A DNA stretch of 64,000 bases from a virus. Both the position numbers and the translations under genes were made by a program. How positions within the stretch are numbered: the first letter of the stretch is position 1; every line of letters begins with the position of its first letter. The stretch is from positions 18,592 to 82,591 of the IMG/VR virus record IMGVR_UViG_3300036832_000548. The stretch is one strand, 5' to 3'. This document shows, piece after piece, positions 30,737 to 55,325 of this stretch. The notes beneath the pieces were generated by a model that did no database searches, was not told the origin of the DNA, and worked only from the letters and a program-made list of their open reading frames with translations.

Positions 30737-33519
30737 CATTCCCAACTGCCGATCTCACAACGATCACGGCAGACAGAACTGATTTCACTGCCGACGCTTC
30801 CGTTACGCTAACTGCCGACACGACGAAATTCACGGCGGATAGCACCAGCATATCCGCCGATATGATCATGCTGCCGGGTGCCGTGGGCACACTGGCGGCG
30901 ACGGAAGCGGCAGACGGCGCGACATTTGCTGGTGCGGTTGCGTGGCCGGTCATCACCGGCACGTTGGTCGCAACCGACGTTGCTGATGGCGCAGCATTCA
31001 GCGCAACGTCAGTCACGCTCGGGGCATTGGCGGCGACTGAGAGCAGCGACACTGCGGCATTTTCCGGTGCGGCGGCTACTCTTGGATCGCTAGCGGCGAC
31101 AGACGCTAGTGACGCCACGACGTTCGCCGGTCAAGTCGCTTGGCTCGGAACAATCGCCGCGACGGAAGGCGCGGATACCAGCACATTCTCTGGCATCATC
31201 GGATTGCTCGGCTCGCTGGCGGCTGAAGAGATCGATGATGCGGCAAGTTTCACCGGCTCTGCAGTTACGTTTGGATCGTTCGCTGCGAACGAGGCTATCG
31301 ATACCGCAGCGTTTGCTGGCACTGCCGTCACGCTCGGCAGCTTTGCGCTCACTGAAGATGTCGACACGGCGGATTTCGCGGGCGGTCTCGTTGGCCTCTC
31401 GACGCTGACGGCACAGGAAGGCCCGGATAGTGCTGCGGTCAGCGGCCAGGTCGAATGGTTCGTAACTCTAACGGCGACGGAAGGCGCGGATAGCGGTTCG
31501 TTTGCGGGTCTGACCGGTCTGCTTGGTTCGCTCGCGGCGACTGACGATCTCGATACGGCGGCAATCGACGGCGCGGTTGATTGGCAGCTCGAACTCGCGG
31601 CTGTTGAGGGCTCTGACGCTGCAGCGTTCAGCGGGCAGAGCGAATGGATCGCCACCCTAGCCGCGACTGAAGGCGCGGACGTTGCGGCCTTTGTCGTATC
31701 GTCAGCGTTCAGCGGCATCCTCGCCGCGACTGATGATCTCGACACCGCAGTGTTCAGCGGACTTGCTGGTGCGATCGGCCAGGTCGCGGCGGTCGAGGCG
31801 GGCGACAGCGCGTCGTTCAGCGGCCAAGTCGAAACCGTTGTGGCGCTGGCCGCGACGGAGGACGCAGATGCAGCCGCGTTCGCTGGCGAGCTGGTCTGGG
31901 CCGGGACGCTGGCAGCGGTTGAAGCCAGCGATATCGTGGCCTTCGCTGGCGGGATCTCAACGGCCGGCGCGTTGGCGGCGACTGAGGACATCGATACCGC
32001 AGCGTTCTCCGGTTCTGGCTATCTGATCTATGCCAGCCTCGCCGCCACAGACGCGGTCGATGCTGCGGCATTCAGCGGACTGGCTGGTGTGCTGGGATCG
32101 CTGACGGCGCTCGAGGGCGCTGATCAGGCGACGTTCGCGGTCACAGCCACATGGCTTGGCACGCTGGCCGCGACTGAGCGCGCTGACGACGCCTATTTCC
32201 CCGGCGAGTCGATTACGTTTGGCACGGTCGCCGCGACTGACGGGCAAGACGCGCCGTCCTTCAGCGGCACGGTCGCATGGCAAGGTGCCCTTGCTGCGGC
32301 AGAGATTGGCGACCGTGCGGGATTTGCCGGTCAAGCGGCCTTTCTAGCCACGCTGGCTGCAATCGAGCTGCCAGACGCCGCCAGCCTCACGGGCGCGGTA
32401 GCGTGGCTGGGCACGCTGGCCGCTCAGGAGGCGGCGACCGATACAGCCTCGATCCAGGGGCTTGTAAGCGCCTACGGTGCGCTAGCTGCCAACGAGGCAG
32501 GCGACAGGGCCAGCCTAACCGCCAGCGTGCAGACCCTCGGGTCTCTGGCAGCAACGGAACTCCGTGACACCGCTGCGTTCAGTTCGCAGGTCGGGGTCAG
32601 CGGAACCCTAGCGGCGAATGAGACCGCCAGCGACACTGCCAGTTTCGGGCTGTCTGCCCAAACGCTCGGTGTCATAAGCGCGATTGAAGCAGCCGGTGAT
32701 GCCGCCGCGTTCAGCGGGGAGGCTGGTCGCGTCGGCACGCTGGCCGCGACTGAGACGACGGTCGATGCCGCGCAGTTTCAGGGTCAAGTCGTTTGGGTCG
32801 CCACGCTGGCGGCGGTCGATGGTCCCGACAGCGCGCAGCTTGCGGGGCGCGTTACCTGGTTCGCCACTCTGGCGGCGAACGAAGGTCCTGACGCCGCCAG
32901 CTTCAGTGTCACCCTCGGATGGCTGGGTGCGCTCGCCGCGCATGAGGCGCCTGACAGCGCCAGCATCACGGCTGTTGCCCAGACGTTTGCAACGCTCGAG
33001 GCGGTCGAGCGTCCAGACAGCGCGGCGATATACGGCATAGCCGGCATAGTCGGTTCGCTCAATGCGCACGAAGCGCCCGACACATTTCAGGCCAGCGCGG
33101 TGGCCGGCGCGATCGGCGCGCTCGCCGCGCTCGAGGCACCGGATCGCGCGAGCTTCACGTCAGCTGACGTTCAGACGGTTCAGTTCGTTGCAAGGAAAAT
33201 CCCGCTCGATGTCACGGTCACCGTCAAGCCACGGATTGTCGCCGTCGTCAGGCAGGTCGACACGGCGTGGCAAACCAATGTCACAGCGTCAGGCTATAGC
33301 GATGCTGTTCAAAGCAAGCAAACGCGCATCACGGCGACCAATCGGCAGACTGAGTTTACTGGCCAGAGCACGCCGCTCGATAATGTTATTACGTTCAAAC
33401 CAAGCGGCCTGAGTTCTACAAGCAAAAAGATCGGCGCAACTGCCGACATGAAGATCACTGCATCTGGCTATCAGGCGACGGCGCAAGGCAAGCGGACGGG
33501 GTGGAAAGGAAAGCCATGA
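30733..33519 (+). CDS. Long tandem-repeat structural protein (about 23-aa GxLAATExxDxAxFxG repeats)
   Basis: More than 30 imperfect repeats visible in translation. Confidence 0.8.
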   Translation: MTFPTADLTTITADRTDFTADASVTLTADTTKFTADSTSISADMIMLPGAVGTLAATEAADGATFAGAVAWPVITGTLVATDVADGAAFSATSVTLGALAATESSDTAAFSGAAATLGSLAATDASDATTFAGQVAWLGTIAATEGADTSTFSGIIGLLGSLAAEEIDDAASFTGSAVTFGSFAANEAIDTAAFAGTAVTLGSFALTEDVDTADFAGGLVGLSTLTAQEGPDSAAVSGQVEWFVTLTATEGADSGSFAGLTGLLGSLAATDDLDTAAIDGAVDWQLELAAVEGSDAAAFSGQSEWIATLAATEGADVAAFVVSSAFSGILAATDDLDTAVFSGLAGAIGQVAAVEAGDSASFSGQVETVVALAATEDADAAAFAGELVWAGTLAAVEASDIVAFAGGISTAGALAATEDIDTAAFSGSGYLIYASLAATDAVDAAAFSGLAGVLGSLTALEGADQATFAVTATWLGTLAATERADDAYFPGESITFGTVAATDGQDAPSFSGTVAWQGALAAAEIGDRAGFAGQAAFLATLAAIELPDAASLTGAVAWLGTLAAQEAATDTASIQGLVSAYGALAANEAGDRASLTASVQTLGSLAATELRDTAAFSSQVGVSGTLAANETASDTASFGLSAQTLGVISAIEAAGDAAAFSGEAGRVGTLAATETTVDAAQFQGQVVWVATLAAVDGPDSAQLAGRVTWFATLAANEGPDAASFSVTLGWLGALAAHEAPDSASITAVAQTFATLEAVERPDSAAIYGIAGIVGSLNAHEAPDTFQASAVAGAIGALAALEAPDRASFTSADVQTVQFVARKIPLDVTVTVKPRIVAVVRQVDTAWQTNVTASGYSDAVQSKQTRITATNRQTEFTGQSTPLDNVITFKPSGLSSTSKKIGATADMKITASGYQATAQGKRTGWKGKP

Positions 33520-41829: not shown

Positions 41830-42819
41830 ATGAGCGATTCTGCTGTCGAGAAGGCAATCACGAACTGCCGCGCAGGTGTTGAGCAAGCCGCGACCGGCAC
41901 GCGCGCCATTGAGAAGGCGCACGCTGACCTCAAGCCCATAGTGTTCCGCAGCCAGCCCGTGGGCCTCGCGATCGCCATGGGCGACTTGGAGCGTCAGCGC
42001 AACACGACGATCCGCGGCATGCTGCTGGCCAATGCCAAGGAGGCTGTCAGGCTTGACCGCCGCCCCGCTGCTGGCTTGGCCTTCTGCCAACTCCGTGAGA
42101 CCTTTGAGCGGCCCAGCGAGTGGCTGGCGTTTCTGCAGATGAACCTTGCTCCGCTACAGCTCACCAAGGTCGAGGCCCTGATGGGCGAGGTCCGGTTCCG
42201 GGGTGCGCTGATGACCTGCTCGCATCCGGGGTGTGACTGCACGGTCAAGGCACCCTGCTCCCACGGCAAGCCTTATATCGTTGACGGGTCGTGGCCTGAC
42301 GATACCGCCGTTGTGCCTGCAGCGCTTGTGACGACCGCCGCCATGGATCGCGCCCTTGAGGCCATCAAGGCTGACCGGAATAAGAGTAACCGTTTGATCG
42401 CACGAGAGATCGGCGCTTCTGAGTTCCTTGTCCGCAAGGCCCGCAAGGCAATCGCACCCGCAATCGCAGTTGCAGACGAGACGGCCCGCATCGGGCAGGA
42501 CGGTCGCGCTCGCCGCGCGCCCAAGCGCGGTCAGGGTTGGCAGGTCTTGCCCCCGGAAGGCCAAGGGGAATGCGATTACAATCCTGAATTTGAGCCAGCG
42601 TTCGACGGCATGTCTGACGCTGAGCTTCGCCAGCAGGCCCACAAGGCGCAGATGGCTGAGGCTGAGCGTCTGGGGCAGGAAGGTGCTTTTTTGCGCGCCG
42701 GCACCAAGAAAGGCGAGATCAACCGGGCGCGCCTGAAGGAGGTGCGGCGGGCGATCAGGTCATTGAAGACGTACTACGACAGGCTGCTCGAAATCGGAGA
42801 GATAAAGAAAGGGTCGTAA
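41830..42819 (+). CDS. Hypothetical DNA-binding protein (Cys cluster plus HTH)
   Basis: KSNRLIAREIGASEFLVRKAR HTH; TTGACA upstream. Confidence 0.65.
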   Translation: MSDSAVEKAITNCRAGVEQAATGTRAIEKAHADLKPIVFRSQPVGLAIAMGDLERQRNTTIRGMLLANAKEAVRLDRRPAAGLAFCQLRETFERPSEWLAFLQMNLAPLQLTKVEALMGEVRFRGALMTCSHPGCDCTVKAPCSHGKPYIVDGSWPDDTAVVPAALVTTAAMDRALEAIKADRNKSNRLIAREIGASEFLVRKARKAIAPAIAVADETARIGQDGRARRAPKRGQGWQVLPPEGQGECDYNPEFEPAFDGMSDAELRQQAHKAQMAEAERLGQEGAFLRAGTKKGEINRARLKEVRRAIRSLKTYYDRLLEIGEIKKGS

Positions 42820-42836
42820 CCAGAGAGGAGGCGCCG

Positions 42837-43412
42837 ATGGCGCGACAAAAGTACAAGAAGCTCTACACGGCTGACGATTGCTCGACGCACGTCTGGGCGC
42901 TCGTCAAAGACGCGCGGGAGAACGTCGAGTTCACGCTCAAGCTCGACGCCGCGTTCATCCAGGACTCGCGGCGCGGCGTGCCGTGGAAATGCCTGCTGGC
43001 CAACGGCACGGCTGCTATCGCCCATAGCGGTCACAATCCGTTCAGCCATCCGGTCAAGTTCGTTTACGTCGAGGGGTCGCACCTCTACGTCCTGACCCGC
43101 GTGTCAGGCCGCAACCGGCGTGAGTATCCGCTGGCCATGCGATATCGCCACAATTTCACAAAGACCTTGCGGCAATTCGACAACATGACCAAGGCCCAGT
43201 TTGTGGAGCTGTTTGGCGATGCGGGTGTACAGATCAGGCTGAAGCCACCCATCCGCCATCAGCGCAGTGCGGAGCAGACTGAGAGCCGCCAGCAGCCCGC
43301 GCGTGCGCCCTCGACTGAGCGCAGGCTGGTTGGGGCCATGCGGCGCGCCCGTGACGCGGGCCTGCTCAACCTTGAGCACCTTGGCGGGCCTAGCCCTGCC
43401 ACGGCGGCCTGA
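42837..43412 (+). CDS. Hypothetical protein
   Basis: GAGGAGG RBS. Confidence 0.7.
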   Translation: MARQKYKKLYTADDCSTHVWALVKDARENVEFTLKLDAAFIQDSRRGVPWKCLLANGTAAIAHSGHNPFSHPVKFVYVEGSHLYVLTRVSGRNRREYPLAMRYRHNFTKTLRQFDNMTKAQFVELFGDAGVQIRLKPPIRHQRSAEQTESRQQPARAPSTERRLVGAMRRARDAGLLNLEHLGGPSPATAA

Positions 43413-43445
43413 CGACCCTCTCCCGGAGGGGAGGTGCGGCGGTGA

Positions 43446-43476
43446 ACCGGGTGCCCGAAAGGGTGCCCGGTTTTTT
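43446..43476 (+). terminator. Intrinsic terminator
   Basis: ACCGGGTGCCC-GAAA-GGGTGCCCGGT hairpin followed by a T run. Confidence 0.75.
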
Positions 43477-43494
43477 ATGGGGAGAGAGACGTAT

Positions 43495-43598
43495 CGTCTC
43501 GGCCAAGGCGCTCTTGATACCCATGTCCCGGATGCCGAGACGGGCCGCCATCGGCCACAAGGGGAATGATGCCCACCTGCTTGATGCCGGTGGCGGCC
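43495..43598 (+). ncRNA. Orphan TIGR-like guide doublet (2 dual-spacer stem-loop units)
   Basis: CGTCTCGGC-CA-N9-TGATACCCA-N9-T-GCCGAGACG then GGCCGCCATCGGC-CA-N9-TGATGCCCA-N9-T-GCCGGTGGCGGCC. Confidence 0.8.
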
Positions 43599-43942
43599 AC
43601 CTAAAAGAACGAGCCGACCTCCGGGGCGTTAAGAGGCCGGCTCGTCCTGCTTGGTAACCCGGCTGGTCGAGGGCTGGGCAACCGCGGGGATCATCGCACC
43701 GGCGCGGCTGTGTTGTCTAGGCCTATCCCTGCCGTTGCCGGCCCATCCACAAGAAACAAACGTAGACCCGACATTTGGCCCGACAGAAACTGGAAAGGTT
43801 GGTGTATTCAAGGTGTTGAAGCACCCTATAAGGGCGAAATAGACCATCAATCGCTGCCCATCGCTGCCAAAAGCATTGTGATTGCAATGGGACTTATTAT
43901 CTGGTCTGATGTCAGCAACCACCGACCCGACAAGGACCAGAC

Positions 43943-45136
43943 ATGGATAAGATCGATACCAAGGGCGCCCGCGAGAAGCTCCCCGCACGCGGGCGCGCAT
44001 ACTTCCTAAACACTGTCGCCAGTGGCATCACGCTGGGCTATCGCCGCCTGCCGGCTGGCCCTGGCTCCTGGCTCATTCGTAAGGCCGACGGCAAGGGCGG
44101 GGCCGTCCTCGTCACCTTCGCCAAGGCGGACGACCTGGTGCCAGCCGACGGCAAAACCATCCTCGACTTTGATCAAGCCCTCTTGCGAGCCCGCGAGGTT
44201 GCGGTCGACCTCATGAGCGACGTTGGCCCGCTGTCTATCGACAGGGCACTCACCGACTTTGCCAACGATCTGGCTGGCCGCGATTCGAACCCCGATAATG
44301 CCCGCCGCGTTCGCAAGCATTTGTCCTCGACTATGCTTGCCAAGCCCGTGGGCGCGCTCACCGCGCGCGAGCTTAAGCGATGGCGTGACGATCTCCTGAA
44401 GAAGATGACGCGGCCGACGGCCGTACGAACAATCAAGATGTTCCGCGCCGCGCTTAATCTCGCTGCCGATCTCGATAGCAAAATCACCAACCGCAATGAC
44501 TGGCGGATCGGCCTTAAGACGCGAGACGACTATCGGCCGGTTGATCGGGTACTTGAGGATGATCAGGTGCTACAGCTGATCGACGCGGCCTATGCGTTCG
44601 ACTATCAGTACGGCTTGCTGCTTGAGGTGTTGGCGTTCACCGGAACGCGCACCAAGCAGGCGACGCGCCTGATGGTCAGCGATCTTGATATCGCTGACAA
44701 GGACAAGCCGCGCCTGATGATGCCCGTGAGCCGCAAAGGCAAGTATCGCAAGACCGAGGTCAATCGGTCGATCCCGATTCCTGTCGATCTCGCTGGCAGG
44801 CTGCGTGCAGCTGCTGGCACTCGGCCGCGCAATACAGCGTTACTAGTCGACGGCAAGGGCAACCCGTGGAAACCGGCCGGCAACGAGATACGCAGGATGT
44901 GGAAGCGCGTCGCCGAGCAAGGCGGAATCAAAGAAACCATGTACGCCCTGCGGCACTCGTTCATCACGCGCAGTCTTAAGGCTGGCATTCCGCCAAGCGT
45001 GCTGGCGAACAGCGTCGACACATCGGTGGCAATGATCGAGAAAACCTATGGGCGCTTCGTCGCCAATCATGCGGACGACATCATGCGTCGTGCCCTGCTG
45101 CCATCAAGCAAGAGGATCCTTCGGATTGTGCCGTAG
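43943..45136 (+). CDS. int: Tyrosine recombinase/integrase
   Basis: Arm-binding N-terminus; TGTR, YALRHS, EKTYG catalytic motifs. Confidence 0.9.
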   Translation: MDKIDTKGAREKLPARGRAYFLNTVASGITLGYRRLPAGPGSWLIRKADGKGGAVLVTFAKADDLVPADGKTILDFDQALLRAREVAVDLMSDVGPLSIDRALTDFANDLAGRDSNPDNARRVRKHLSSTMLAKPVGALTARELKRWRDDLLKKMTRPTAVRTIKMFRAALNLAADLDSKITNRNDWRIGLKTRDDYRPVDRVLEDDQVLQLIDAAYAFDYQYGLLLEVLAFTGTRTKQATRLMVSDLDIADKDKPRLMMPVSRKGKYRKTEVNRSIPIPVDLAGRLRAAAGTRPRNTALLVDGKGNPWKPAGNEIRRMWKRVAEQGGIKETMYALRHSFITRSLKAGIPPSVLANSVDTSVAMIEKTYGRFVANHADDIMRRALLPSSKRILRIVP

Positions 45137-45334
45137 CCGCTCAATGCGGCGGGCCCACTCCGCGTCGGCCTCGCGTGTAATGCTGATCTTCCCGCCTCGC
45201 GACAGTTGCACAATAGCTGGCGCGAGGCCTTTCTTTTGTAACTTCGTGAACCGGGTGCGCGAGACACGCCGCTTCACCAGCCATTCGGCCAATGTGTAGT
45301 CGCGGTCAGCCGCGATGGCCTCTTTTTTTGGCAC
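45104..45334 (-). CDS. Excisionase/AlpA-like DNA-binding protein
   Basis: YTLAEW..VSRTRFTKL.K.GLAP..ISITREADAEW; convergent on the integrase. Confidence 0.7.
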   Translation of the reverse strand: MPKKEAIAADRDYTLAEWLVKRRVSRTRFTKLQKKGLAPAIVQLSRGGKISITREADAEWARRIERLRHNPKDPLA

Positions 45335-49222: not shown

Positions 49223-50344
49223 TTAGGAACGCCCATCGGTTCCCTCAGGATGCGCTTGCTGCTCGTCCCAGCCTGCGCGCCACTCAAGGGCTTCGCGCGC
49301 CCGTGTTGGATCTCGATACTCGATCGGGGTTGCTTTGCGCTGCATGCCCTTGGCTTGGTCAGCGCGACCGCGTTCGCGCGCAATCACCAGCAAATCTGGG
49401 GCGGTCGCCTGTTGGGGTTCTACTTTCGTTTCGGATTTTGCAGCCGTTTGCTGCGGTTCCTGATTCGTTTCCGTGTTCGAATCATCGGAGTGCTGCTCGC
49501 TTGGCGGCGATTCCGGTTCTGTCAAGTGGTCGACGATGGTTCGGTCAGCGTGGGCTTGGTCGTGCGCTTCCTGCACGGTGTCTGCTGGTGGACCGGCGAA
49601 ATGATCGAGCGTCGCGCCGCGGGCGGTCTCACTGCGAGCGCGGGACTGGGCGGTCGTCTCGCCCTCTTCATCTTCGTACATCTCCTCATCTTTGCGGATC
49701 AGATCATCGAGGTCAGACGACATGGGCAGAAGCCGCGACAGGACCCGGATCGCGGTCTTCATCTCCATTTCTTCCGTCCACATTTTCCAAGGCGCGTCCT
49801 CGCGCGAGGCGCGGCTCATGTTGCGGCGCTTGGCAATCTCACTAGGCGATAGTGGCGCGATAAAAACCCCGCCGTCCTTGGTCCCGGCTGCGGCGTAGAC
49901 AAGACGCTTCTTCTTGTCGGTGTGATCGTCGCCCGGAATATGTTTGAAATGCGGGCCGTTCTCGTCAGTCCAGTGTTCCCAATGGTCGCCATCGTAAACG
50001 ATATCCGTCGTCACCCATTTAAATTGCCCGCTATTGCGGAATTTTTTGAGCAGGCCTTGGTACATCGGCAGGTATTGGACCTTGTTCTTAAATGGCACCA
50101 ACGCGGCCTCGCGACCGTCAGGCAGCAAACCGTCCTGGGCACAACGCAGTGCGGAGTTGAACAGCGAGCCGCGGTCACAGGTGAGCAGGTCGTTATTGAG
50201 CTGCACGGCGGTCAGCACAACGCGGAAGAACCGTTCGGCTGGCATGTGCTTCGGGAGCGCATGTTGAAATTGCACACTGCGATCGTTGAGTTGATCGCGC
50301 AGGACCACCATCGGGTGCGCGGGTTTGTTGGCTTGATCGTTCAT
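49223..50344 (-). CDS. recT: RecT-family single-strand annealing protein
   Basis: ALPKHM..ERF.RV..SL..CAQDGLLPDGREAALVPF..MYQGLLK..PW...EEM..KT.IR.L. Confidence 0.92.
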   Translation of the reverse strand: MNDQANKPAHPMVVLRDQLNDRSVQFQHALPKHMPAERFFRVVLTAVQLNNDLLTCDRGSLFNSALRCAQDGLLPDGREAALVPFKNKVQYLPMYQGLLKKFRNSGQFKWVTTDIVYDGDHWEHWTDENGPHFKHIPGDDHTDKKKRLVYAAAGTKDGGVFIAPLSPSEIAKRRNMSRASREDAPWKMWTEEMEMKTAIRVLSRLLPMSSDLDDLIRKDEEMYEDEEGETTAQSRARSETARGATLDHFAGPPADTVQEAHDQAHADRTIVDHLTEPESPPSEQHSDDSNTETNQEPQQTAAKSETKVEPQQATAPDLLVIARERGRADQAKGMQRKATPIEYRDPTRAREALEWRAGWDEQQAHPEGTDGRS

Positions 50345-50368
50345 TCGTTTTTCTCCTTTTGATTAGGT

Positions 50369-51038
50369 GCCGCCGAGGGCAGTCGAGCGTCGGGCATCAA
50401 GGCCTCGCAGGCCCTCGGCGGCGATCTCGGCACCGATTTCCTGGGCATCATAGGACGTTTGGCCGAGATTTCTTTTTGGTGCCGCCGAGGGCAACTTGAA
50501 CTTGGGCATCATGGGTGACATGGCCCTCGGCGGCTTGCTCGGCGTGCAGTTTTTGGGAACCCACTAATTTCTGGCCAAGCAATTTCTTGGAGTTGGTGCC
50601 GCCGCGGGCAACCCGAAGGGGGGGATCATTCGGGGCATGGCCCGCAGCGGCGGTCTCGGCAGGGGATGCATGGGCATCACGAAGTTCGTGGCCGAGATTT
50701 TTGCGCTTGCGTTTTTTGGGGCCGCCGACGGCGCTTGCGATTTGGGGATCAACCGAGCAATGGCCATCGGCAGCGACCTCGGCACCCATGCCATGGGCAT
50801 CAAGAACTACATGGCCGAGATCATTGGTGCCGCCGAGGGCAGAGGAATCCTGGGCATCATGCGCTGCTTGGCCATCGGCGGCGATCTCGGCAAAGCGTCG
50901 CTGGGCATCATGGATCCGTTGGCCGAGACCATTCGAATAGATGCCGCCGGCATGGCTCCTCTGGGCATCAGCCGCATGCTGGCCGACGGCGATCTCGGCA
51001 GCGCCATTTTGGGCATCATTGCTCATGTGGCCGAGATC
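50369..51038 (-). ncRNA. TIGR-like stem-loop array A (6 doublets, 12 dual-spacer units)
   Basis: Repeated GATCTCGGC-CA-N9-TGATGCCCA-N9-T-GCCGAGATC / GCCGCCGAGGGC-CA-N9-TGATGCCCA-N9-T-GCCCTCGGCGGC with unique spacers. Confidence 0.88.
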
Positions 51039-51974
51039 ATTCGTGGCTTGATCGACCCACTGTTCCCACAGGTCCACCAAGAATTGTTTGAAGGCGATCC
51101 GCAATCCGTCCTGGCGGCGATGACCGGGCGTCCATTCGGGATGCGATATCTCAGTGCGTATTCGGCGCGCGGCATAGACCTCGCCATAGCGTCCGTTGGG
51201 ATGACCTTCATCGGCCCCGGCCTTCGCTGCCGATATCCACTGCTTGTTCACGAGCCACAAGGCGATCGTGTACATCGTGGCGTATCGCTCACCCGAAAAC
51301 GGATTCGCGATCCATTCCTCCTTATCCAACTTACGCGGCCGCCACGTTTCCCGTTTCCAAGTCGATCCGGCGTGGCCATCATACGGTGCAAAGCCGAGAC
51401 GCTTCCAAAGCTTCTCCGGGTTCGCGTAGTTATCGAGCGGGCCCGCCTCCGCAACGATCAGGGCAAGGCCGAGGATGCCCGCGCCGGGGATCGACTCAAC
51501 CCACGGTGCAACGGGCAACTGCGCCGCGAGTTCCTCTATTCCAGCCGTTGAGTCGTCTCGCACTTCATCCATTGGCCCACGCGCGATGTCAGTCTTCTGC
51601 ACAATCGTGAGCAGATCGTGGGGCAAGTCCGTTTGAACAATCTCGCCGCTGCCGTTGGCGGCCTTCTTGTACACCGCGCGCGCCTCCTTGATCATCGCGG
51701 CAACCTTCTTGTTGTATTCCGCGCGAATGGCTTCCGACTCAGTCGGCTTCCAATCTGTAAAGTTGCGCCGGATATAGGACTCAAGAGCGCGGTCGATCTT
51801 TTGTTGAACTTTGATCGCGAACTTGCGCCGTCGCGCCAGCGTCACGATGTTCTTCACCAGCTCGTCGCGAGCACGAATTTGCAGCACCAGCGAAGGCAAG
51901 CCAATGGCGGAATTGCGCGCATCAATCAAAGCTTGAGCGCGGCGAGTGCGGTCGGCATTTGTTTGCTGTGTCAT
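50448..51974 (-). CDS. tasA: IS110/Nop-domain RNA-binding protein without nuclease domain (TasA-like); C-terminal about 195 aa read through array A
   Basis: Coiled coil, then LPVAPWVESIPGAGILGLALIVAEAG..YANPEKLWKRLGFAP..YGEVY..GHRRQDGLRIAFKQFLVDLW; no N-terminal DEDD/RuvC; AAGGGA RBS. Confidence 0.8.
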   Translation of the reverse strand: MTQQTNADRTRRAQALIDARNSAIGLPSLVLQIRARDELVKNIVTLARRRKFAIKVQQKIDRALESYIRRNFTDWKPTESEAIRAEYNKKVAAMIKEARAVYKKAANGSGEIVQTDLPHDLLTIVQKTDIARGPMDEVRDDSTAGIEELAAQLPVAPWVESIPGAGILGLALIVAEAGPLDNYANPEKLWKRLGFAPYDGHAGSTWKRETWRPRKLDKEEWIANPFSGERYATMYTIALWLVNKQWISAAKAGADEGHPNGRYGEVYAARRIRTEISHPEWTPGHRRQDGLRIAFKQFLVDLWEQWVDQATNDLGHMSNDAQNGAAEIAVGQHAADAQRSHAGGIYSNGLGQRIHDAQRRFAEIAADGQAAHDAQDSSALGGTNDLGHVVLDAHGMGAEVAADGHCSVDPQIASAVGGPKKRKRKNLGHELRDAHASPAETAAAGHAPNDPPLRVARGGTNSKKLLGQKLVGSQKLHAEQAAEGHVTHDAQVQVALGGTKKKSRPNVL

Positions 51975-51998
51975 ATTGTGTGTCCCTTGTTGTTAGGT

Positions 51999-52100
51999 GC
52001 CGCCGAGGACATTCGACGTATGGGTATCACCCGAGCAACGGCCCTCGGCGGCGATCTCGGCGATCATACAATGGGCATCACTGGGGCTGTAGCCGAGATC
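51999..52100 (-). ncRNA. TIGR-like array B (1 doublet)
   Basis: Same repeat architecture, intergenic upstream of tas. Confidence 0.85.
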
Positions 52101-52102
52101 AT

Positions 52103-52795
52103 TTAGTGTCCTTCGATATACTTTTGCAGGCTCGCCACCGTCGCAACGACTGCGGTGTTCAACGCAGCCGGGGCTTGCTCGCGAGCTTCCCGATCAAACT
52201 GCTCGAGCACATTTGCTGGGACGATATCGCGGACCCGCGCATCCGTATTTGGCACGCGCGCGTAGCTGCGGATCTTGCACATGAGCAGCGTGTCGGCAGT
52301 CTCCTGCAGTGTGCTCAACACGGTCGAACCGACGACCGCAATGCGCTCCTCAATCGCGGCGTCCAGCTCCCGCCAGTGCAGGTCGCCAACCGGCGCGCCG
52401 TTGATCCTGCGGCGGTCATAGATGAGGCCAACGCTGCGCATCATCGCGGTTCGGTTGATCGCCTTGTCGCGGGCTGTGGGTGATTTGGTGCCGCCGCTGG
52501 CGTTTCTGCTTTGGGCATCAAGTCCACGCTGGCCAGCGGCAGCGGTCTTGGCACGCAGCGTGTGGGCATCAGCATGTACGCGGCCAAGATCATTCGAAAT
52601 GCGTTTGAGATAATCCAGCGCGAGCCCGCCGAGTAATTCCGGGCGGCGTTGAATTTTCTTGACGAAGCCGGTCAAGACTTTCGTCGGGTCGTTTTTGTTG
52701 TCATTCAACAAATTGACGGCAGCGACCCGCAGCTCGTTAGCGACGGTGTCGAGGCCGGCTTTCTTCAGAGCAGCTCCGATAGATGTGTCAGTCAT
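52103..52795 (-). CDS. Hypothetical helical protein containing an in-frame guide doublet
   Basis: GGAG RBS before ATG 52795; open across array C. Confidence 0.7.
   Translation of the reverse strand: MTDTSIGAALKKAGLDTVANELRVAAVNLLNDNKNDPTKVLTGFVKKIQRRPELLGGLALDYLKRISNDLGRVHADAHTLRAKTAAAGQRGLDAQSRNASGGTKSPTARDKAINRTAMMRSVGLIYDRRRINGAPVGDLHWRELDAAIEERIAVVGSTVLSTLQETADTLLMCKIRSYARVPNTDARVRDIVPANVLEQFDREAREQAPAALNTAVVATVASLQKYIEGH
52490..52591 (-). ncRNA. TIGR-like array C (1 intragenic doublet)
   Basis: Same architecture with compensatory stem changes. Confidence 0.8.
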
Positions 52796-52818
52796 TTTGT
52801 GTTCTCCGTTCAAAAGGT

Positions 52819-53033
52819 GCCGCTGAGGGCACCAGTCCCGTAGGCATCAACAAACAGATGGCCCGCAGCGGCGATCTCGGCAAAACTTGGTTGGGCATCA
52901 TGGATGCGATAGCCGAGATCATTTGTGTGGGTGCCGCCGAGGGCATTGCGTCGTTGGGCATCAGGCGTTCCTGGGCCCCCGGCGGCGGTCTCGGCACCGA
53001 TCCTCTGGGCATCAACGCGCGGATGGCCGAGAT
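52819..53033 (-). ncRNA. TIGR-like array D (2 doublets)
   Basis: Same repeat architecture. Confidence 0.87.
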
Positions 53034-53038
53034 TTGTG

Positions 53039-53734
53039 TCATATCGTTACCCTGAAGATTTCGCTGAATGGCGGGCGGTGCGCCGCGTCAGATAGCTCGT
53101 TGCTGACGACTAGCACGCGATATCGAAAGCCGCGGCTTTGATTGATTACGCTGGTTCGCGCGAGATAGTTTTTCTGGAGCTGTTGCAGCCAAAAACTGGC
53201 GTGTTGCAGTTCCCCGTAAATCTTCTGCCGTCGGGCTGCATGATTGATCCGACGAAGAACGGACCCCTCATTGAACACAACGATGAAATCGCTGGCTGCA
53301 ACGTCGCGCGCCACGATCCGCATCGCGCCAACGCCATGCCCGGTGTAGCCGCAGGGATCTGATAGCCATAGGACGTAATCGTACCCACCGGCGCGTACGA
53401 CATCGACGACATCGGAATGCGTCTCGGCAATGAGGGCACTCGGAAACCGTTTGCGCAGCAAAAGCCGTTGCCTCCGACTCGCATCGCACAGGCAAACGTC
53501 CGCGCTCACGGCGAAGGCGATGTTGGTGACAATCTGCGGCGTTGGCGTCGACACAACGCCGTCATGCAAAACGCCGATACCATCACCAGCATTGGCATCG
53601 ATCAAAAGAAGTTTGTCGTGCAGATGAGCGGTCCTGACTTGCGCTTCAACGATCTTGCTCAACAACGAGTGTTTGATCCACGACCCCTCGCTGCGGCCCG
53701 CATTAGCGCGTTCGTTGGTCGAGGCGTGGGTCAT
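53039..53734 (-). CDS. SAM-dependent methyltransferase-fold protein (TcmP/GMT-like)
   Basis: SWIKHSLL..LIDANAGDG..LSDPCG, similar to the KH/IDxxAGxG/DPxG motifs of TcmP-like proteins. Confidence 0.55.
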   Translation of the reverse strand: MTHASTNERANAGRSEGSWIKHSLLSKIVEAQVRTAHLHDKLLLIDANAGDGIGVLHDGVVSTPTPQIVTNIAFAVSADVCLCDASRRQRLLLRKRFPSALIAETHSDVVDVVRAGGYDYVLWLSDPCGYTGHGVGAMRIVARDVAASDFIVVFNEGSVLRRINHAARRQKIYGELQHASFWLQQLQKNYLARTSVINQSRGFRYRVLVVSNELSDAAHRPPFSEIFRVTI

Positions 53735-53743
53735 CGTGTAGGT

Positions 53744-54406
53744 GCCGCCGCAGGCAGAGGCCGAGTGGGCATCATCGTCGTTGTGGCCCGCGGCGGCGAT
53801 CTCGGCGTTCCGCGTTTGGGCATCAAGCGATCGTTGGCCGAGAATTGTTGAAAGGCTGCCGCCGAGGGCATGACGATTTTGGGCATCAACGAACGACTGG
53901 CCATCGGCGGCGATCTCGGCAAGCGCCTTCTGGGCATCATCTGGCCTGTGGCCGAGATCATTCGAATGGGGGCCGCCGAGGGCAAGCACAGGATGGGCAT
54001 CACGGGTCGCGTGGCCCCCGACGGCGATCTCGGCACCCGAGTCATGGGCATCAAGTGGTCATGGGCCGAGATTATAGGTGCCGCCGAGGGCAACGATCCA
54101 TTGGGCATCACGCTGGCAACGGCCCTCGGCGGCGATCTCGGCATTCCATCATTGGACAGCAAGTCGTCGTTGGCCGAGAAGATTTTAGGTGCCGCCGAGG
54201 GCGCACCTCCCATGGGCATCAAGGACGGCGTGGCCCGCGGCGGCGATCTCGGCAACGGGTGGCTGGGCATCAGCCGTCTACTGGCCGAGATCATTCTGAT
54301 AGATGCCGCCGAGGGCATGAGCTGCTTGGGCATCAGCCAGCTTCTGGTCCTCGACGGCGATCTCGGCAGAGCTCGTATGGGCATCACTGGTGGATTGGCC
54401 GAGATC
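53744..54406 (-). ncRNA. TIGR-like array E (6 doublets, 12 units)
   Basis: Same repeat architecture; starts at the stop codon of the YqaJ gene. Confidence 0.9.
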
Positions 54407-55325
54407 ATTTGGTTGCTTCTTTACGTTCGTGAATTCGGAGAACGCGGACCTCGCGTGGGAGGACCGTATAGCCGGAAAAATTCGAGGTTTTGTAGGTGAC
54501 TTTCCATCCGTTAACGCCGGAGACTTGGGCCGCGTCACCCAATTTGTATTTTATCTGAGCCTCGATCTCGTCTTTGCGTTGGTCGAGCGAAGCGATCCGT
54601 TGCATCAGGGCGGCGCGTTCCGCGAGGATTTCCGGCAGCTCGTTGTCGCCAGACATGTCGACCATCTTATCGGTGGCTTCGCGTGGACTGATCAACTTGA
54701 TCAGCTCAGCATCCTTGCCGAAATCGGGCGCCGGCTCGTGACCGATCCGCATTAGCTCCCAAAAATTCTGGGCGGCTGTCTTGATCCGCTCCTCGGCACC
54801 GGCGTGGCGTGGCAATTCCCTGATGCAGACATCGAGATCATAGTTGTAAACCACGGCGGCCACCCCGAAGGCGGCGTCGGCCAGCAGCATCTCGGTGAGC
54901 AGCTGCAGCTCGATCCACAATGGGGTGATATTTCCGTTGTCCCAATCGCGCTCAAAGATGTGCGGATAGGCGGTTTTAGTTTGCAGGATGCCGAGGCCGC
55001 GCGGATCGCCGTGGATAAAGAAATCTGGCGTAGCGCCCAACTGCAGCTCAGGGGCACGGAAATATGTCTGGCATTTCTCAATGATCCAATCGTCGTGTTC
55101 CTCTCCGACACGCTGGGCAACGACGTTTTCGAGCAGGCGCCCGCGGCGGATCGGTTTCGTTTCCTCGAATTCGAACTCCATCCCATTGTGCTGATAGTAA
55201 AGCTTGAGCGCGGTGACATACGGGTGCAGGCCGAACAGCGCCGCCACCACGGAGGCGGTGATGTCCGGCTTGCGCAGCTCCAGCCACTGCGGGCGACTCA
55301 GGATTGGGATGCGTTCGACGATCAT
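54405..55325 (-). CDS. YqaJ/lambda-exonuclease family protein
   Basis: WLELRKPDITAS..RGRLLE..GATPDF..LQTKT..QL. Confidence 0.9.
   Translation of the reverse strand: MIVERIPILSRPQWLELRKPDITASVVAALFGLHPYVTALKLYYQHNGMEFEFEETKPIRRGRLLENVVAQRVGEEHDDWIIEKCQTYFRAPELQLGATPDFFIHGDPRGLGILQTKTAYPHIFERDWDNGNITPLWIELQLLTEMLLADAAFGVAAVVYNYDLDVCIRELPRHAGAEERIKTAAQNFWELMRIGHEPAPDFGKDAELIKLISPREATDKMVDMSGDNELPEILAERAALMQRIASLDQRKDEIEAQIKYKLGDAAQVSGVNGWKVTYKTSNFSGYTVLPREVRVLRIHERKEATK

What the first reader, a model, noticed from the sequence alone, without database searches (positions are those of the whole stretch)
43495..43598. Orphan guide doublet 7 kb from the tas locus, on the opposite strand, upstream of the integrase
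A complete two-unit cassette with the same CCA-N9-TGAT(A/G)CCCA-N9-TG core lies in the intergenic region where attP would be expected, between a terminator and another hairpin (GAGCCGACCTC/GAGGCCGGCTC). Spacers are AGGCGCTCT/TGTCCCGGA and CAAGGGGAA/CCTGCTTGA. The stems are re-coded (CGTCTCGGC/GCCGAGACG; GGCCGCCATCGGC/GCCGGTGGCGGCC) but still pair, and the ACCTAA tail is retained. This suggests guides supplied in trans under different regulation, or that doublets are mobile.
Basis: seen in the sequence. Interest (0 to 1): 0.8.

Follow-up and report, generated by a model that had tools for sequence, protein, structure and literature searches.

The report
Lone TIGR guide-RNA pair beside integrase
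A complete pair of guide-RNA hairpins of this soil phage's TIGR-TasA system (an RNA-guided DNA-binding system first described in 2025) sits alone about 7 kb from the rest, on the other strand just before the integrase gene; it is a known kind of element in an unusual, separately transcribed place, and whether the phage uses it is untested.

Summary
Window 43491-43605 (+) is a complete two-hairpin guide cassette. It has four CCA and four UG anchor motifs, four 9-nt spacers, stems of 9 and 13 pairs that all pair, and the ACCTAA tail. A covariance model built only from the 16 minus-strand doublets at 50.36-54.41 kb scores it at 83.4 bits (training copies 77.9-107.2; next hit outside the arrays 14.7). 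It is the only such copy elsewhere in the 82.6-kb phage record. It lies 6.76 kb from the nearest array and on the opposite strand. It starts 16 nt after the late-operon terminator and ends 337 nt before the integrase start codon.

It is a stem-loop tigRNA pair of a TIGR-TasA system (Faure 2025; Xu 2026). Lone, distant doublets recur in related phages: at least 3 of 4 other records that are 81% or more complete have one 14-42 kb from tas. This scan also noted orphan TIGR units earlier on other DNA (five findings).

Use in trans by TasA under separate (late or read-through) transcription is the best reading. It remains unproven: I found no promoter, no RNA data, no target and no close relative to test conservation. 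This is a new variant of a known kind and of moderate interest.

The parts
43444..43478 (+). Intrinsic terminator of the late (+) operon: a 13-pair hairpin followed by UUUUUUAU. It ends 16 nt before the doublet.
   Evidence: Folds at -24.7 kcal/mol, z -4.2. The last late ORF, 42837-43412, has GC3 0.80. The simple terminator scan did not list it.
43495..43542 (+). Orphan hairpin 1 (a stem-loop tigRNA unit): 9-bp stem, box C CCA, spacer A at 43506-14, loop repeat at 43515-23, spacer B at 43524-32, box D UG.
   Evidence: 9 of 9 pairs, 2 changed on both sides relative to the canonical consensus. Folds alone at -20.4 kcal/mol.
43543..43598 (+). Orphan hairpin 2: 13-bp stem (one G.U), CCA, spacer A at 43558-66, loop repeat at 43567-75, spacer B at 43576-84, UG.
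   Evidence: 13 of 13 pairs, 4 changed on both sides. Folds alone at -37 kcal/mol, z -5.1.
43599..43604 (+). ACCTAA tail, as found after canonical doublets.
   Evidence: the consensus tail of the 16 canonical doublets is ACCTA.
43610..43644 (.). Second hairpin. It is imperfect on the + RNA (A.C) and perfect with G.U on the - RNA, where UUCUUUU follows. It is probably a - strand terminator.
43943..45136 (+). Tyrosine integrase gene, 337 nt downstream of the doublet.
   Evidence: PF00589 E 1.2e-10 and phrog_1 E 1e-28.
51040..51974 (-). tasA-like gene (Nop/IS110-C-terminal-type RNA-binding protein with no nuclease domain). The mechanical ORF runs on through the array to 50448.
   Evidence: PF02371 at 20.5 bits, just under its cut-off of 21.3. 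phrog_4285. 251 homologues. The only PDB sequences with E below 1 are 9mty_A (E 0.002), which I take to be TasR from its 331-aa length alone, and TasH (E 0.005).
50362..54410 (-). The 16 canonical doublets, in five blocks: 50362-51042, 51992-52104, 52483-52595, 52812-53038 and 53737-54410.

Best explanation
[quoted passage not shown] It belongs to the phage's own TIGR-TasA system but lies outside the tas locus.

The inferred mechanism has three steps.
1. It is transcribed on the + strand as the extreme 3' end of the late operon. This would happen by read-through or antitermination of the terminator 16 nt upstream. The timing would therefore differ from that of the 16 doublets in the early RecE-tasA-RecT operon.
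2. The two hairpins are cut out and loaded in trans onto TasA dimers made from the gene 7.4 kb away.
3. [quoted passage not shown] There, nuclease-less TasA binds and blocks transcription.

Shown here: the anatomy, family membership, strand, uniqueness in the genome, intactness, and the recurrence of lone distal doublets in related phages. Inferred: transcription, processing, loading and repression. The targets are unknown.
For: Family membership and uniqueness:
- Model R1 was built from the 16 canonical doublets only. It scores the orphan at 83.4 bits, E 2.7e-16, inside the range of the training copies (77.9-107.2).
- The best hit in the window outside the arrays scores 14.7 bits, and antisense-strand hits over the doublets (arrays and orphan) reach at most 19.6 bits.
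- Nothing in the first 18.7 kb of the record scores above 16.9 bits.

Match to published tigRNA features:
- Edge and loop elements that start with UG and end with CCA, and 9-nt spacers, match the structural description of tigRNAs (PMC12045711 section 8).
- The palindromic flanks match stem-loop TIGR arrays (PMC12045711 section 9).

Intactness:
- 22 of 22 stem pairs are formed, with 6 both-sided and 0 one-sided changes relative to the canonical consensus.
- All four CCA and all four UG motifs are present. By contrast, 3 of the 32 in-array units have degenerate loops.

The partner protein:
- The same genome encodes a TasA-type protein.
- TasA proteins were shown to act as RNA-guided repressors, and stem-loop tigRNAs were shown to be expressed from flexible positions (Xu 2026 bioRxiv, sections 11-13).

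Recurrence of lone, distant doublets:
- G024 (78 kb, CheckV 100%) has one 42 kb from tas.
- G012 (81% complete) has lone doublets 14 kb and 50 kb from tas.
- G010 (91% complete) has one 20 kb away and another on the opposite strand 1.8 kb away.
- G005 has a lone doublet on a 42-kb contig with no TasA.

The four orphan spacers have no match within 1 mismatch in the roughly 500 units (about 1000 spacers) collected in the window and fetched loci, so the orphan adds new specificities.
Against: - There is no promoter-like site on the + strand in 42800-44100.
- The doublet starts 16 nt after a strong terminator.
- It is followed by a hairpin that looks like a terminator for the opposite strand. It therefore sits in a pocket insulated from both sides.
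- Of four lone doublets inspected elsewhere (G024/L032, L033, L040, L045), three have an exact TTGACA hexamer, which I place about 30-35 nt before the first stem (seen by eye). The fourth (L033) has a consensus promoter that passes the scan. This orphan has neither.
- In the 25 related loci, 173 of 174 doublets lie on the tas strand, so an opposite-strand copy is unusual.
- No target was found: none in the phage itself, none above control level in about 0.53 Mb of related phage loci, and none in 401 Xanthobacteraceae genomes (0 exact; 8 one-mismatch hits against 16 for the control pattern).
- Conservation could not be tested because no close relative's DNA was available.
- Intactness could reflect recent arrival rather than selection.
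Confidence: 0.55

Rival explanations
1. Silent relic or hitch-hiker. The doublet is a genuine tigRNA cassette by descent, but it is not expressed in this phage. It would have been carried in by recombination with the integrase or late-operon end module, or left behind by a former array. It still looks intact only because it is recent.
For: - No promoter was found, and terminators face it from both sides.
- Its stems differ from those of all 16 local doublets at 6 pairs.
- Its stems resemble lone doublets from unrelated contigs. The H1 core GTCTCGGC is shared with L040. The 13-bp H2 that starts GGCCGCC is shared with L032/G024. This fits a foreign origin.
- The TIGR-Tas cassette is itself an accessory module that is absent from a related contig.
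- No target was found.
Against: - All 22 stem pairs, all 8 anchor motifs and the exact 9-nt spacer lengths are kept, whereas some in-array units have decayed.
- It scores higher against this phage's own model (83.4 bits) than any doublet of the 25 related loci (73.7 bits or less). Lone doublets in G004/G024 score 86.5.
- Lone doublets recur in several complete phages, which argues that they are kept.
Confidence: 0.3
2. A cis or architectural role connected to integration or to the late mRNA. One version is a TasA-binding RNA structure at the late transcript's 3' end or in an int leader that tunes int expression. Another is guides that let TasA bend DNA as an RNA-guided helper of the adjacent integrase, an idea raised in the Discussion of Faure et al. 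2025.
For: - The position is immediately upstream of int and of the region where attP would normally lie.
Against: - No 18-bp site for either hairpin exists anywhere in the 82.6-kb phage genome at 2 mismatches or fewer. This holds for contiguous sites and for gaps of 0-30 nt, and the counts equal those of control arrangements.
- No half-site cluster lies in 43606-45200.
- Six prophage loci with the closest integrase relatives found (38-43% identity) have no doublet beside them.
- Lone doublets in other phages lie in tail or baseplate regions, not beside integrases.
Confidence: 0.1
3. Chance inverted repeats, or integrase or attP binding repeats unrelated to TIGR.
For: The location is intergenic and next to int, where inverted and direct repeats are common.
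Against: - 0.05 matches to the core pattern are expected by chance, and two adjacent exact ones are present.
- The covariance-model score is 83.4 bits.
- My unit detector found 0 hits in reversed-sequence controls against 271 real ones.
- No Rfam family matches.
Confidence: 0.01

Closest known systems
Stem-loop TIGR arrays with nuclease-less TasA (PlTasA, BlTasA; Faure et al. 2025 Science, PMC12045711, sections 4, 6, 8, 9, legends and passages read; Xu et al. 2026 bioRxiv 10.64898/2026.09.09.750476, sections 5, 11, 13 and passages read; Guan et al. 2026 bioRxiv 10.64898/2026.08.11.744272, section 5 read)
   Same: - Two 9-nt spacers per unit.
- CCA (box C) before each spacer and UG (box D) after each spacer.
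- A loop element that starts with UG and ends with CCA.
- Palindromic flanks that form a stem.
- A phage-borne TasA without a nuclease domain.
- Units between genes and inside coding sequence at the main locus.
   Different: - This copy is solitary (one doublet), 6.8 kb from the nearest array and on the opposite strand to tas. It lies after a terminator in another operon.
- The papers' main texts describe units upstream of, downstream of and within tas. The words 'orphan', 'opposite strand' and 'antisense' do not occur in Xu et al., and 'orphan' does not occur in Faure et al..
- The CUU processing motif reported at stem bases is absent here.
- Units come as fixed short-stem/long-stem pairs.
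- Supplements, Fig. 1d and the TIGRSafari resource could not be seen. They may already show distal units.
Orphan or mini CRISPR arrays and solitary repeat units on viruses and prophages that use Cas proteins encoded elsewhere
   Same: A guide-encoding unit separated from its effector genes, presumed to work in trans, often with its own promoter. It is thought to serve conflicts between mobile elements.
   Different: The chemistry and architecture differ (box C/D-type dual-spacer hairpins and a Nop-domain protein). Here the effector is on the same genome.
IS110-family bridge RNA
   Same: Faure et al. (Fig. [quoted passage not shown] This doublet is two tigRNA-like loops in tandem, next to a recombinase gene.
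   Different: - The neighbouring recombinase is a tyrosine integrase, not a DEDD/RuvC-Tnp enzyme.
- TasA matches only the IS110 C-terminal domain family, and weakly (PF02371).
- No complementarity to any phage site was found.
Archaeal and eukaryotic box C/D guide RNAs
   Same: A bipartite guide held by terminal and internal protein-binding motifs on a Nop-domain dimer.
   Different: - There are no RUGAUGA or CUGA boxes in the classical sense.
- The guides target DNA on both strands rather than RNA.
- No fibrillarin or L7Ae partner was seen. These two families were not specifically searched for.

Membership tests
Stem-loop tigRNA unit of a TIGR-Tas system | Box C (CCA) immediately 5' of each spacer and box D (UG) immediately 3', at both the stem ('edge') and loop positions | tested here: met
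   4 of 4 CCA and 4 of 4 UG motifs are in register in the two hairpins. The definition is taken from PMC12045711 section 8.
Stem-loop tigRNA unit of a TIGR-Tas system | Two variable spacers of 8-12 nt per unit | tested here: met
   There are four spacers of exactly 9 nt. None has a match within 1 mismatch in the roughly 500 units (about 1000 spacers) collected in the window and fetched loci.
Stem-loop tigRNA unit of a TIGR-Tas system | Palindromic flanks that close each unit into a hairpin, supported by covariation | tested here: met
   9 of 9 and 13 of 13 pairs are formed, with 6 both-sided changes relative to the canonical consensus and 0 one-sided. Each hairpin folds alone as predicted.
Stem-loop tigRNA unit of a TIGR-Tas system | A Tas protein (Nop-type RNA-binding domain) encoded in the same genome | tested here: met
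   - Gene at 51040-51974(-). PF02371 scores 20.5 bits, just below its cut-off of 21.3.
- The alignment profile hits only 9mty_A (331 aa, which I take to be TasR from its length alone, E 0.002) and TasH (E 0.005) in the PDB.
- 251 homologues were found, many with guide-like C-terminal repeats.
Stem-loop tigRNA unit of a TIGR-Tas system | Lies in a tandem array adjacent to, or within, tas and on the tas strand | tested here: not met
   It is a single doublet, 6757 nt from the nearest array, about 7.4 kb from tasA and on the opposite strand. In the 25 related loci, 173 of 174 doublets are on the tas strand.
Stem-loop tigRNA unit of a TIGR-Tas system | Conserved CUU at the stem base marking the processing site (Xu et al. 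2026, section 11) | tested here: not met
   By inspection, no CUU lies at either stem base of the orphan. The consensus of the canonical doublets has none either. This clade may be processed differently.
Stem-loop tigRNA unit of a TIGR-Tas system | Expressed, processed to discrete units and bound by Tas | not testable with these tools
   No RNA data could be used (see Tried and rejected). RNA-protein binding cannot be modelled with the tools offered.
IS110 bridge RNA | Encoded beside a DEDD/RuvC plus Tnp recombinase, with loops complementary to the donor (element end) and target DNA | tested here: not met
   Only a weak PF02371 hit and no DEDD transposase domain in TasA. The adjacent gene is a tyrosine integrase. 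No complementarity to the phage genome was found.
Any curated RNA family (Rfam 15) | Covariance-model match | tested here: not met
   The only hit in 43300-44000 is whalefall-1 at 15.2 bits (gathering score 37). It is on the other strand and outside the doublet.

The most novel reading that the evidence does not exclude
The integrase-proximal doublet programmes TasA as an RNA-guided, IHF-like DNA-bending helper for the neighbouring tyrosine integrase, with its 18-bp sites in the bacterial attachment region. This idea was floated, but never exemplified, in the Discussion of Faure et al. 2025.

My evidence excludes target sites in the phage's own DNA. It does not exclude sites in the unknown host.

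A milder and more likely version (about 0.4) is that lone distal doublets are a general, separately regulated second tier of TIGR guides in TasA phages.
Probability: 0.05. Interest if true: 0.85.

Novelty: new variant of a known kind. Interest (0 to 1): 0.45.

Why it matters
TIGR-Tas biology is young. The natural targets and the timing of guide expression are unknown (Xu 2026 Discussion). Arrays have been annotated around tas.

A complete guide pair in another operon on the other strand shows that guide repertoires cannot be read from the tas neighbourhood alone. So do lone doublets 14-50 kb from tas in other near-complete phages.

If such copies are expressed, different guides may be deployed at different stages of the phage life cycle (early, late, lysogenic). 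A lone unit with only two guides is also a convenient handle for experiments. Deleting it, or exchanging its spacers, tests trans-loading and target choice without touching the main arrays.

Tried and rejected
- **Close relatives.** Peptide-pattern scans with TasA and with the integrase found nothing in IMG/VR. TasA found nothing in metagenome contigs. No cultured phage has a TasA relative. The contigs of the closest TasA homologues (P0002 at 82% identity, 58.7 kb; P0003 at 58%, 95.7 kb) therefore could not be read, and positional conservation of the orphan is untested.
- **Structure.** I used a PDB sequence-profile search instead.
- **Expression.** The look-up of sequencing runs listed two DNA runs (soil metagenomes) and no RNA holder. 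Read laying used contigs only and says nothing on transcription.
- **Targets in the phage.** With the spacers joined as A+rc(B) or rc(A)+B, no site with 2 mismatches or fewer exists in the 82.6-kb genome. The counts at 3-4 mismatches equal those of five control arrangements. Allowing gaps of 0-30 nt gave the same result.
- **Targets elsewhere.** In about 0.53 Mb of related loci I saw no enrichment over controls. In IMG/VR, the A+rc(B) 18-mer of H1 has 1 exact hit (L041, near the 5' end of a 638-aa gene that follows a 609-aa gene; I guess portal after terminase, not tested) and that of H2 has 0. That is roughly what I would expect by chance for an 18-mer in a collection of this size, though I did not compute the expectation. 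In 401 Xanthobacteraceae genomes, H1 gave 0 exact hits and 8 one-mismatch hits against 16 for the reversed control. H2 was not run there. The rc(A)+B order was not run on the public collections. I inferred the A+rc(B) order from '8-nt 3' overhangs' and the 'C-5 rule'. The paper's two wordings of the cut site disagree, so the order is not certain.
- **attP.** No tRNA or tRNA fragment was found. Integrase relatives in Xanthobacteraceae are only 34-43% identical (14 of 401 genomes at E 1e-30 or better), so attP and the host were not determined. The host family is only a guess, based on one MAG contig carrying a 45%-identical TasA.
- **Promoters of lone doublets elsewhere.** The consensus scan of 4 (L033) and does not call L032, L040 or L045. 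The TTGACA hexamers in those three were seen by eye only.
- **Mobility.** I saw no duplicated flank around the orphan by eye. No tool was run for this.
- **Literature.** I searched 'TIGR-Tas'/'tigRNA' (51 papers), 'tigRNA'+'orphan' (1 review, listing only) and 'tigRNA'+'in trans' (5 papers). None of the texts I read describes distal or opposite-strand units.
- **Slips corrected.** One search had a term that was too short and was repeated. One search had a pattern that must start with 4 plain bases and was repeated. One search had wrong ORF bounds and was repeated. One search needed a genome handle for 'of' and was replaced.

Full report
**What is there.** Window 43495-43604 on the + strand reads as two adjacent hairpins.
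- Hairpin 1 has a 9-bp stem (43495-43503 / 43534-43542). It encloses CA, a 9-nt spacer, TGATACCCA, a 9-nt spacer and T.
- Hairpin 2 has a 13-bp stem (43543-43555 / 43586-43598). It encloses the same frame, with TGATGCCCA as the loop element.
- ACCTAA follows.

The core pattern with up to one mismatch occurs 28 times in the window, against 0.05 expected from shuffles. Two occurrences are exact and on the + strand (these two units). The other 26 are on the - strand between 50431 and 54398.

**The system it belongs to.** The - strand region 50.36-54.41 kb holds 16 such doublets in five blocks. They lie between and inside the genes of an early operon. The operon includes a RecE-like exonuclease (54405-55325), two unknown ORFs, a 311-residue protein at 51040-51974 and RecT (49223-50344).

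That 311-residue protein has the following matches.
- It hits only the IS110 C-terminal family, and weakly (PF02371, 20.5 bits against a cut-off of 21.3).
- A profile of it and 23 homologues hits only two PDB sequences with E below 1. One is 9mty_A, labelled as an IS110 C-terminal-domain protein (E 0.002). I take it to be TasR because its 331-aa length matches the length given for TaTasR; no call names it so. The other is TasH (E 0.005).
- It has 251 homologues, mostly from soil metagenomes. The closest ones carry C-terminal tails that translate guide units.

The RNA anatomy matches published tigRNAs. Edge and loop elements begin with UG (box D) and end with CCA (box C), the spacers are 9 nt, and in 'stem-loop arrays' the edge repeat is replaced by a palindrome (PMC12045711 sections 8 and 9). 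This is therefore a stem-loop TIGR-TasA system in a phage. The record is an 82,591-bp IMG/VR virus contig from a soil metagenome with a CheckV completeness of 100.

**Is the orphan a true member?** I built a covariance model from the 16 canonical doublets only (alignment A2, model R1).
- With filters off, the orphan scores 83.4 bits (E 2.7e-16) over the full model length at 43491-43605 (+). The training copies score 77.9-107.2.
- The best hit in the window outside the arrays scores 14.7 bits, and antisense-strand hits over the doublets (arrays and orphan) reach at most 19.6 bits.
- The orphan's own antisense scores 11 and 8 bits, so its orientation is unambiguous.
- The 18.7 kb of the record outside the window has nothing above 16.9 bits. 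There is exactly one orphan.
- A separate unit detector found 271 units in the window and 24 related loci, and none in reversed-sequence controls.
- No Rfam family matches.

**Intactness.** Both stems pair completely (9 of 9 and 13 of 13, with one G.U).
- Relative to the consensus of the 16 canonical doublets, two pairs of hairpin 1 and four of hairpin 2 are changed on both sides. One of these creates a 13th pair. No pair is changed on one side only.
- All four CCA and all four UG motifs and all spacer lengths are kept, while three of the 32 in-array units have degenerate loops.
- Each hairpin folds alone as drawn (-20.4 and -37 kcal/mol).
- The hairpin-to-hairpin spacing is 52 nt. Canonical doublets use 51 nt, with all spacings multiples of three, and lie in open frames.
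- The orphan lies in no credible ORF. The mechanical ORFs across it lack the GC3 bias of real genes.

**Context.** Three features frame the doublet.
- The last late gene (42837-43412, +, GC3 0.80, no family) is followed by a 13-pair hairpin plus UUUUUUAU (43444-43478; -24.7 kcal/mol).
- The doublet begins 16 nt later. After it comes a hairpin at 43610-43644. This hairpin has an A.C mismatch on the + strand RNA. On the - strand RNA it is continuous (G.U) and is followed by UUCUUUU, so it looks like a terminator for leftward transcription.
- The integrase gene (PF00589, phrog_1) starts at 43943 on the + strand. It converges on the early - strand operon, which ends at 45306.

The simple scan finds no sigma-70-like site on the + strand in 42800-44100. 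The only visible way to transcribe the doublet is read-through of the late terminator.

**Comparison with other phages.** A profile scan of IMG/VR gave 24 loci with TasA relatives (43-58% identity), and the genome collection gave one (a Xanthobacteraceae MAG contig).
- In these 25 loci, R1 finds 174 doublets at E 1e-3 or better, and 173 are on the tas strand. By the unit detector (24 loci), most lie within about 2.3 kb of tas.
- The exceptions matter. L005 has a complete doublet on the opposite strand 1.8 kb upstream, inside a divergent operon.
- I then searched whole records (150 hits listed, 38 not listed). G024 (77,961 bp, completeness 100) has tas at about 73.5-74.3 kb and a lone doublet at 31420-31533, about 42 kb away. 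It lies in the tail-fibre region and is antisense to both neighbours. The identical doublet lies on the fragment G004.
- G012 (81% complete) has lone doublets about 14 kb and 50 kb from tas. The 50-kb copy lies between baseplate-region genes and is antisense to them.
- G010 (91% complete) has one about 20 kb away.
- G005 (42 kb, 54% complete) has one doublet and no TasA on the contig.

At least three of the four other records that are 81% or more complete have a distal lone doublet, as does this phage. The lone copy in G024, like the orphan here, has stems unlike those of its local arrays.

The orphan here differs from four other lone copies that I inspected in one respect. Three of them (G024/L032, L040 and L045) have an exact TTGACA hexamer. 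I place it about 30-35 nt before the first stem, by eye only; the scan did not call these. The fourth, L033, has a TTGCAA-16-TATATT promoter that passes the scan. The orphan has a terminator there instead.

**Origin.** The orphan scores higher against this phage's own model than any doublet of the 25 related loci (73.7 bits or less). That argues for kinship with the local arrays.
- Its hairpin-1 stem core is shared with the lone doublet of L040, and its 13-bp GGCCGCC-type hairpin 2 with that of G024. A separate 'lone-copy' lineage or a foreign origin therefore cannot be excluded.
- In the source sample, a related contig joins recT (up to 50359) directly to recE (from 54665) with 241 other letters between them. 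The 4.3-kb TIGR-Tas cassette is thus an accessory insertion.

**Function.** What is established elsewhere is the following.
- tigRNA spacers A and B pair with opposite strands of a contiguous 18-bp site (PMC12045711 sections 6 and 8; Guan et al. section 5).
- TasA lacks a nuclease and acts as an RNA-guided transcriptional repressor.
- Stem-loop tigRNAs are made from positions upstream of, downstream of and inside tas (Xu et al. sections 11-13).

By inference, the orphan supplies two more guides to TasA in trans, from a different transcription unit.

I could not find their targets.
- There is no site in the phage genome at 2 mismatches or fewer, whether contiguous or gapped, and the counts equal control arrangements.
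- There is no enrichment in related phage loci.
- There are one and zero exact hits in IMG/VR for the two hairpins, roughly what I would expect by chance, though I did not compute the expectation.
- There is no exact hit in 401 Xanthobacteraceae genomes for hairpin 1, and one-mismatch hits fall below the control.

The absence of self-sites argues against one version of the published speculation that TasA could aid phage integrases by bending DNA (passage). In that version the bend would be in attP. A site in an unknown host attB is not excluded. Six prophage loci with the nearest integrase relatives (38-43% identity) have no doublet beside them.

**Verdict.** The element is a genuine, intact, solitary stem-loop tigRNA doublet (confidence about 0.95). 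That TasA uses it in trans under separate regulation is the best reading (about 0.55). A silent relic is the main rival (about 0.3). The deciding data are missing: an RNA signal, TasA loading, and conservation in close relatives.

Compared with what I could read in print, the new points are the solitary, distant, opposite-strand placement and its recurrence in related phages. Supplements and the TIGRSafari resource were not visible and may already cover this. This scan has also already reported five orphan TIGR units in other genomes.

Noticed in passing
window 50359-54665: In the source metagenome, a related contig joins recT directly to recE, with 241 other letters in place of these 4.3 kb. 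The whole TIGR-Tas cassette (tasA, two ORFs, 16 doublets) therefore looks like an accessory insertion between the RecET genes (joint 50359>54665, side 255).
   Followed up: partly
window 50448-51974 (-) and 53731-54408 (-): The tasA frame has no stop after the Nop-like domain and reads through 11 guide units. All unit spacings in the arrays are multiples of 3. Homologues P0002-P0008 also carry guide-like C-terminal repeat tails.
   Followed up: partly
window 52483-52595 within ORF 52103-52813 (-): A full doublet lies in frame inside a 236-aa ORF upstream of tasA. The apparent counterpart of this gene in L004 (about 9361-10022) seems to lack the doublet by eye. No alignment was made.
   Followed up: no
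window 43600-43720 (-): A promoter-like site on the - strand (43719>43690, TAGACA-18-GATGAT with TG) lies about 45 nt upstream of the hairpin at 43610-43644, which reads as a - strand terminator. Together they could define a small leftward RNA of roughly 80 nt between int and the doublet.
   Followed up: no
L030 / G002 (IMGVR_UViG_3300043611_000020, 40.6 kb, 72% complete): Six doublets lie on both strands (22.2-25.8 kb on -, 31.0-33.4 kb on +). No TasA is detectable with the family profile on the whole contig.
   Followed up: no
L040 527-560; L045 about 1915-1950; L032 8982-9010: Lone doublets in three unrelated contigs each have an exact TTGACA hexamer that I place about 30-35 nt before the first stem. 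Two are followed 17-18 nt later by (G/C)ACGGT rather than a TATAAT-like box, which may be a shared non-canonical promoter. The consensus scan does not call them.
   Followed up: partly
L041 7183-7200 (IMGVR_UViG_3300043180_000048): The only exact IMG/VR match to the joined spacers of orphan hairpin 1 lies 24-41 nt inside a 638-aa gene that follows a 609-aa gene. I guess these are portal after terminase (not tested). One hit is about what I would expect by chance.
   Followed up: partly
window 43646-43654: The sequence matches spacer B of orphan hairpin 2 at 8 of 9 positions in the same sense, 62 nt downstream of that spacer. It is a half-site only, and the genome-wide frequency of such matches (10) is at chance level.
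   Followed up: no
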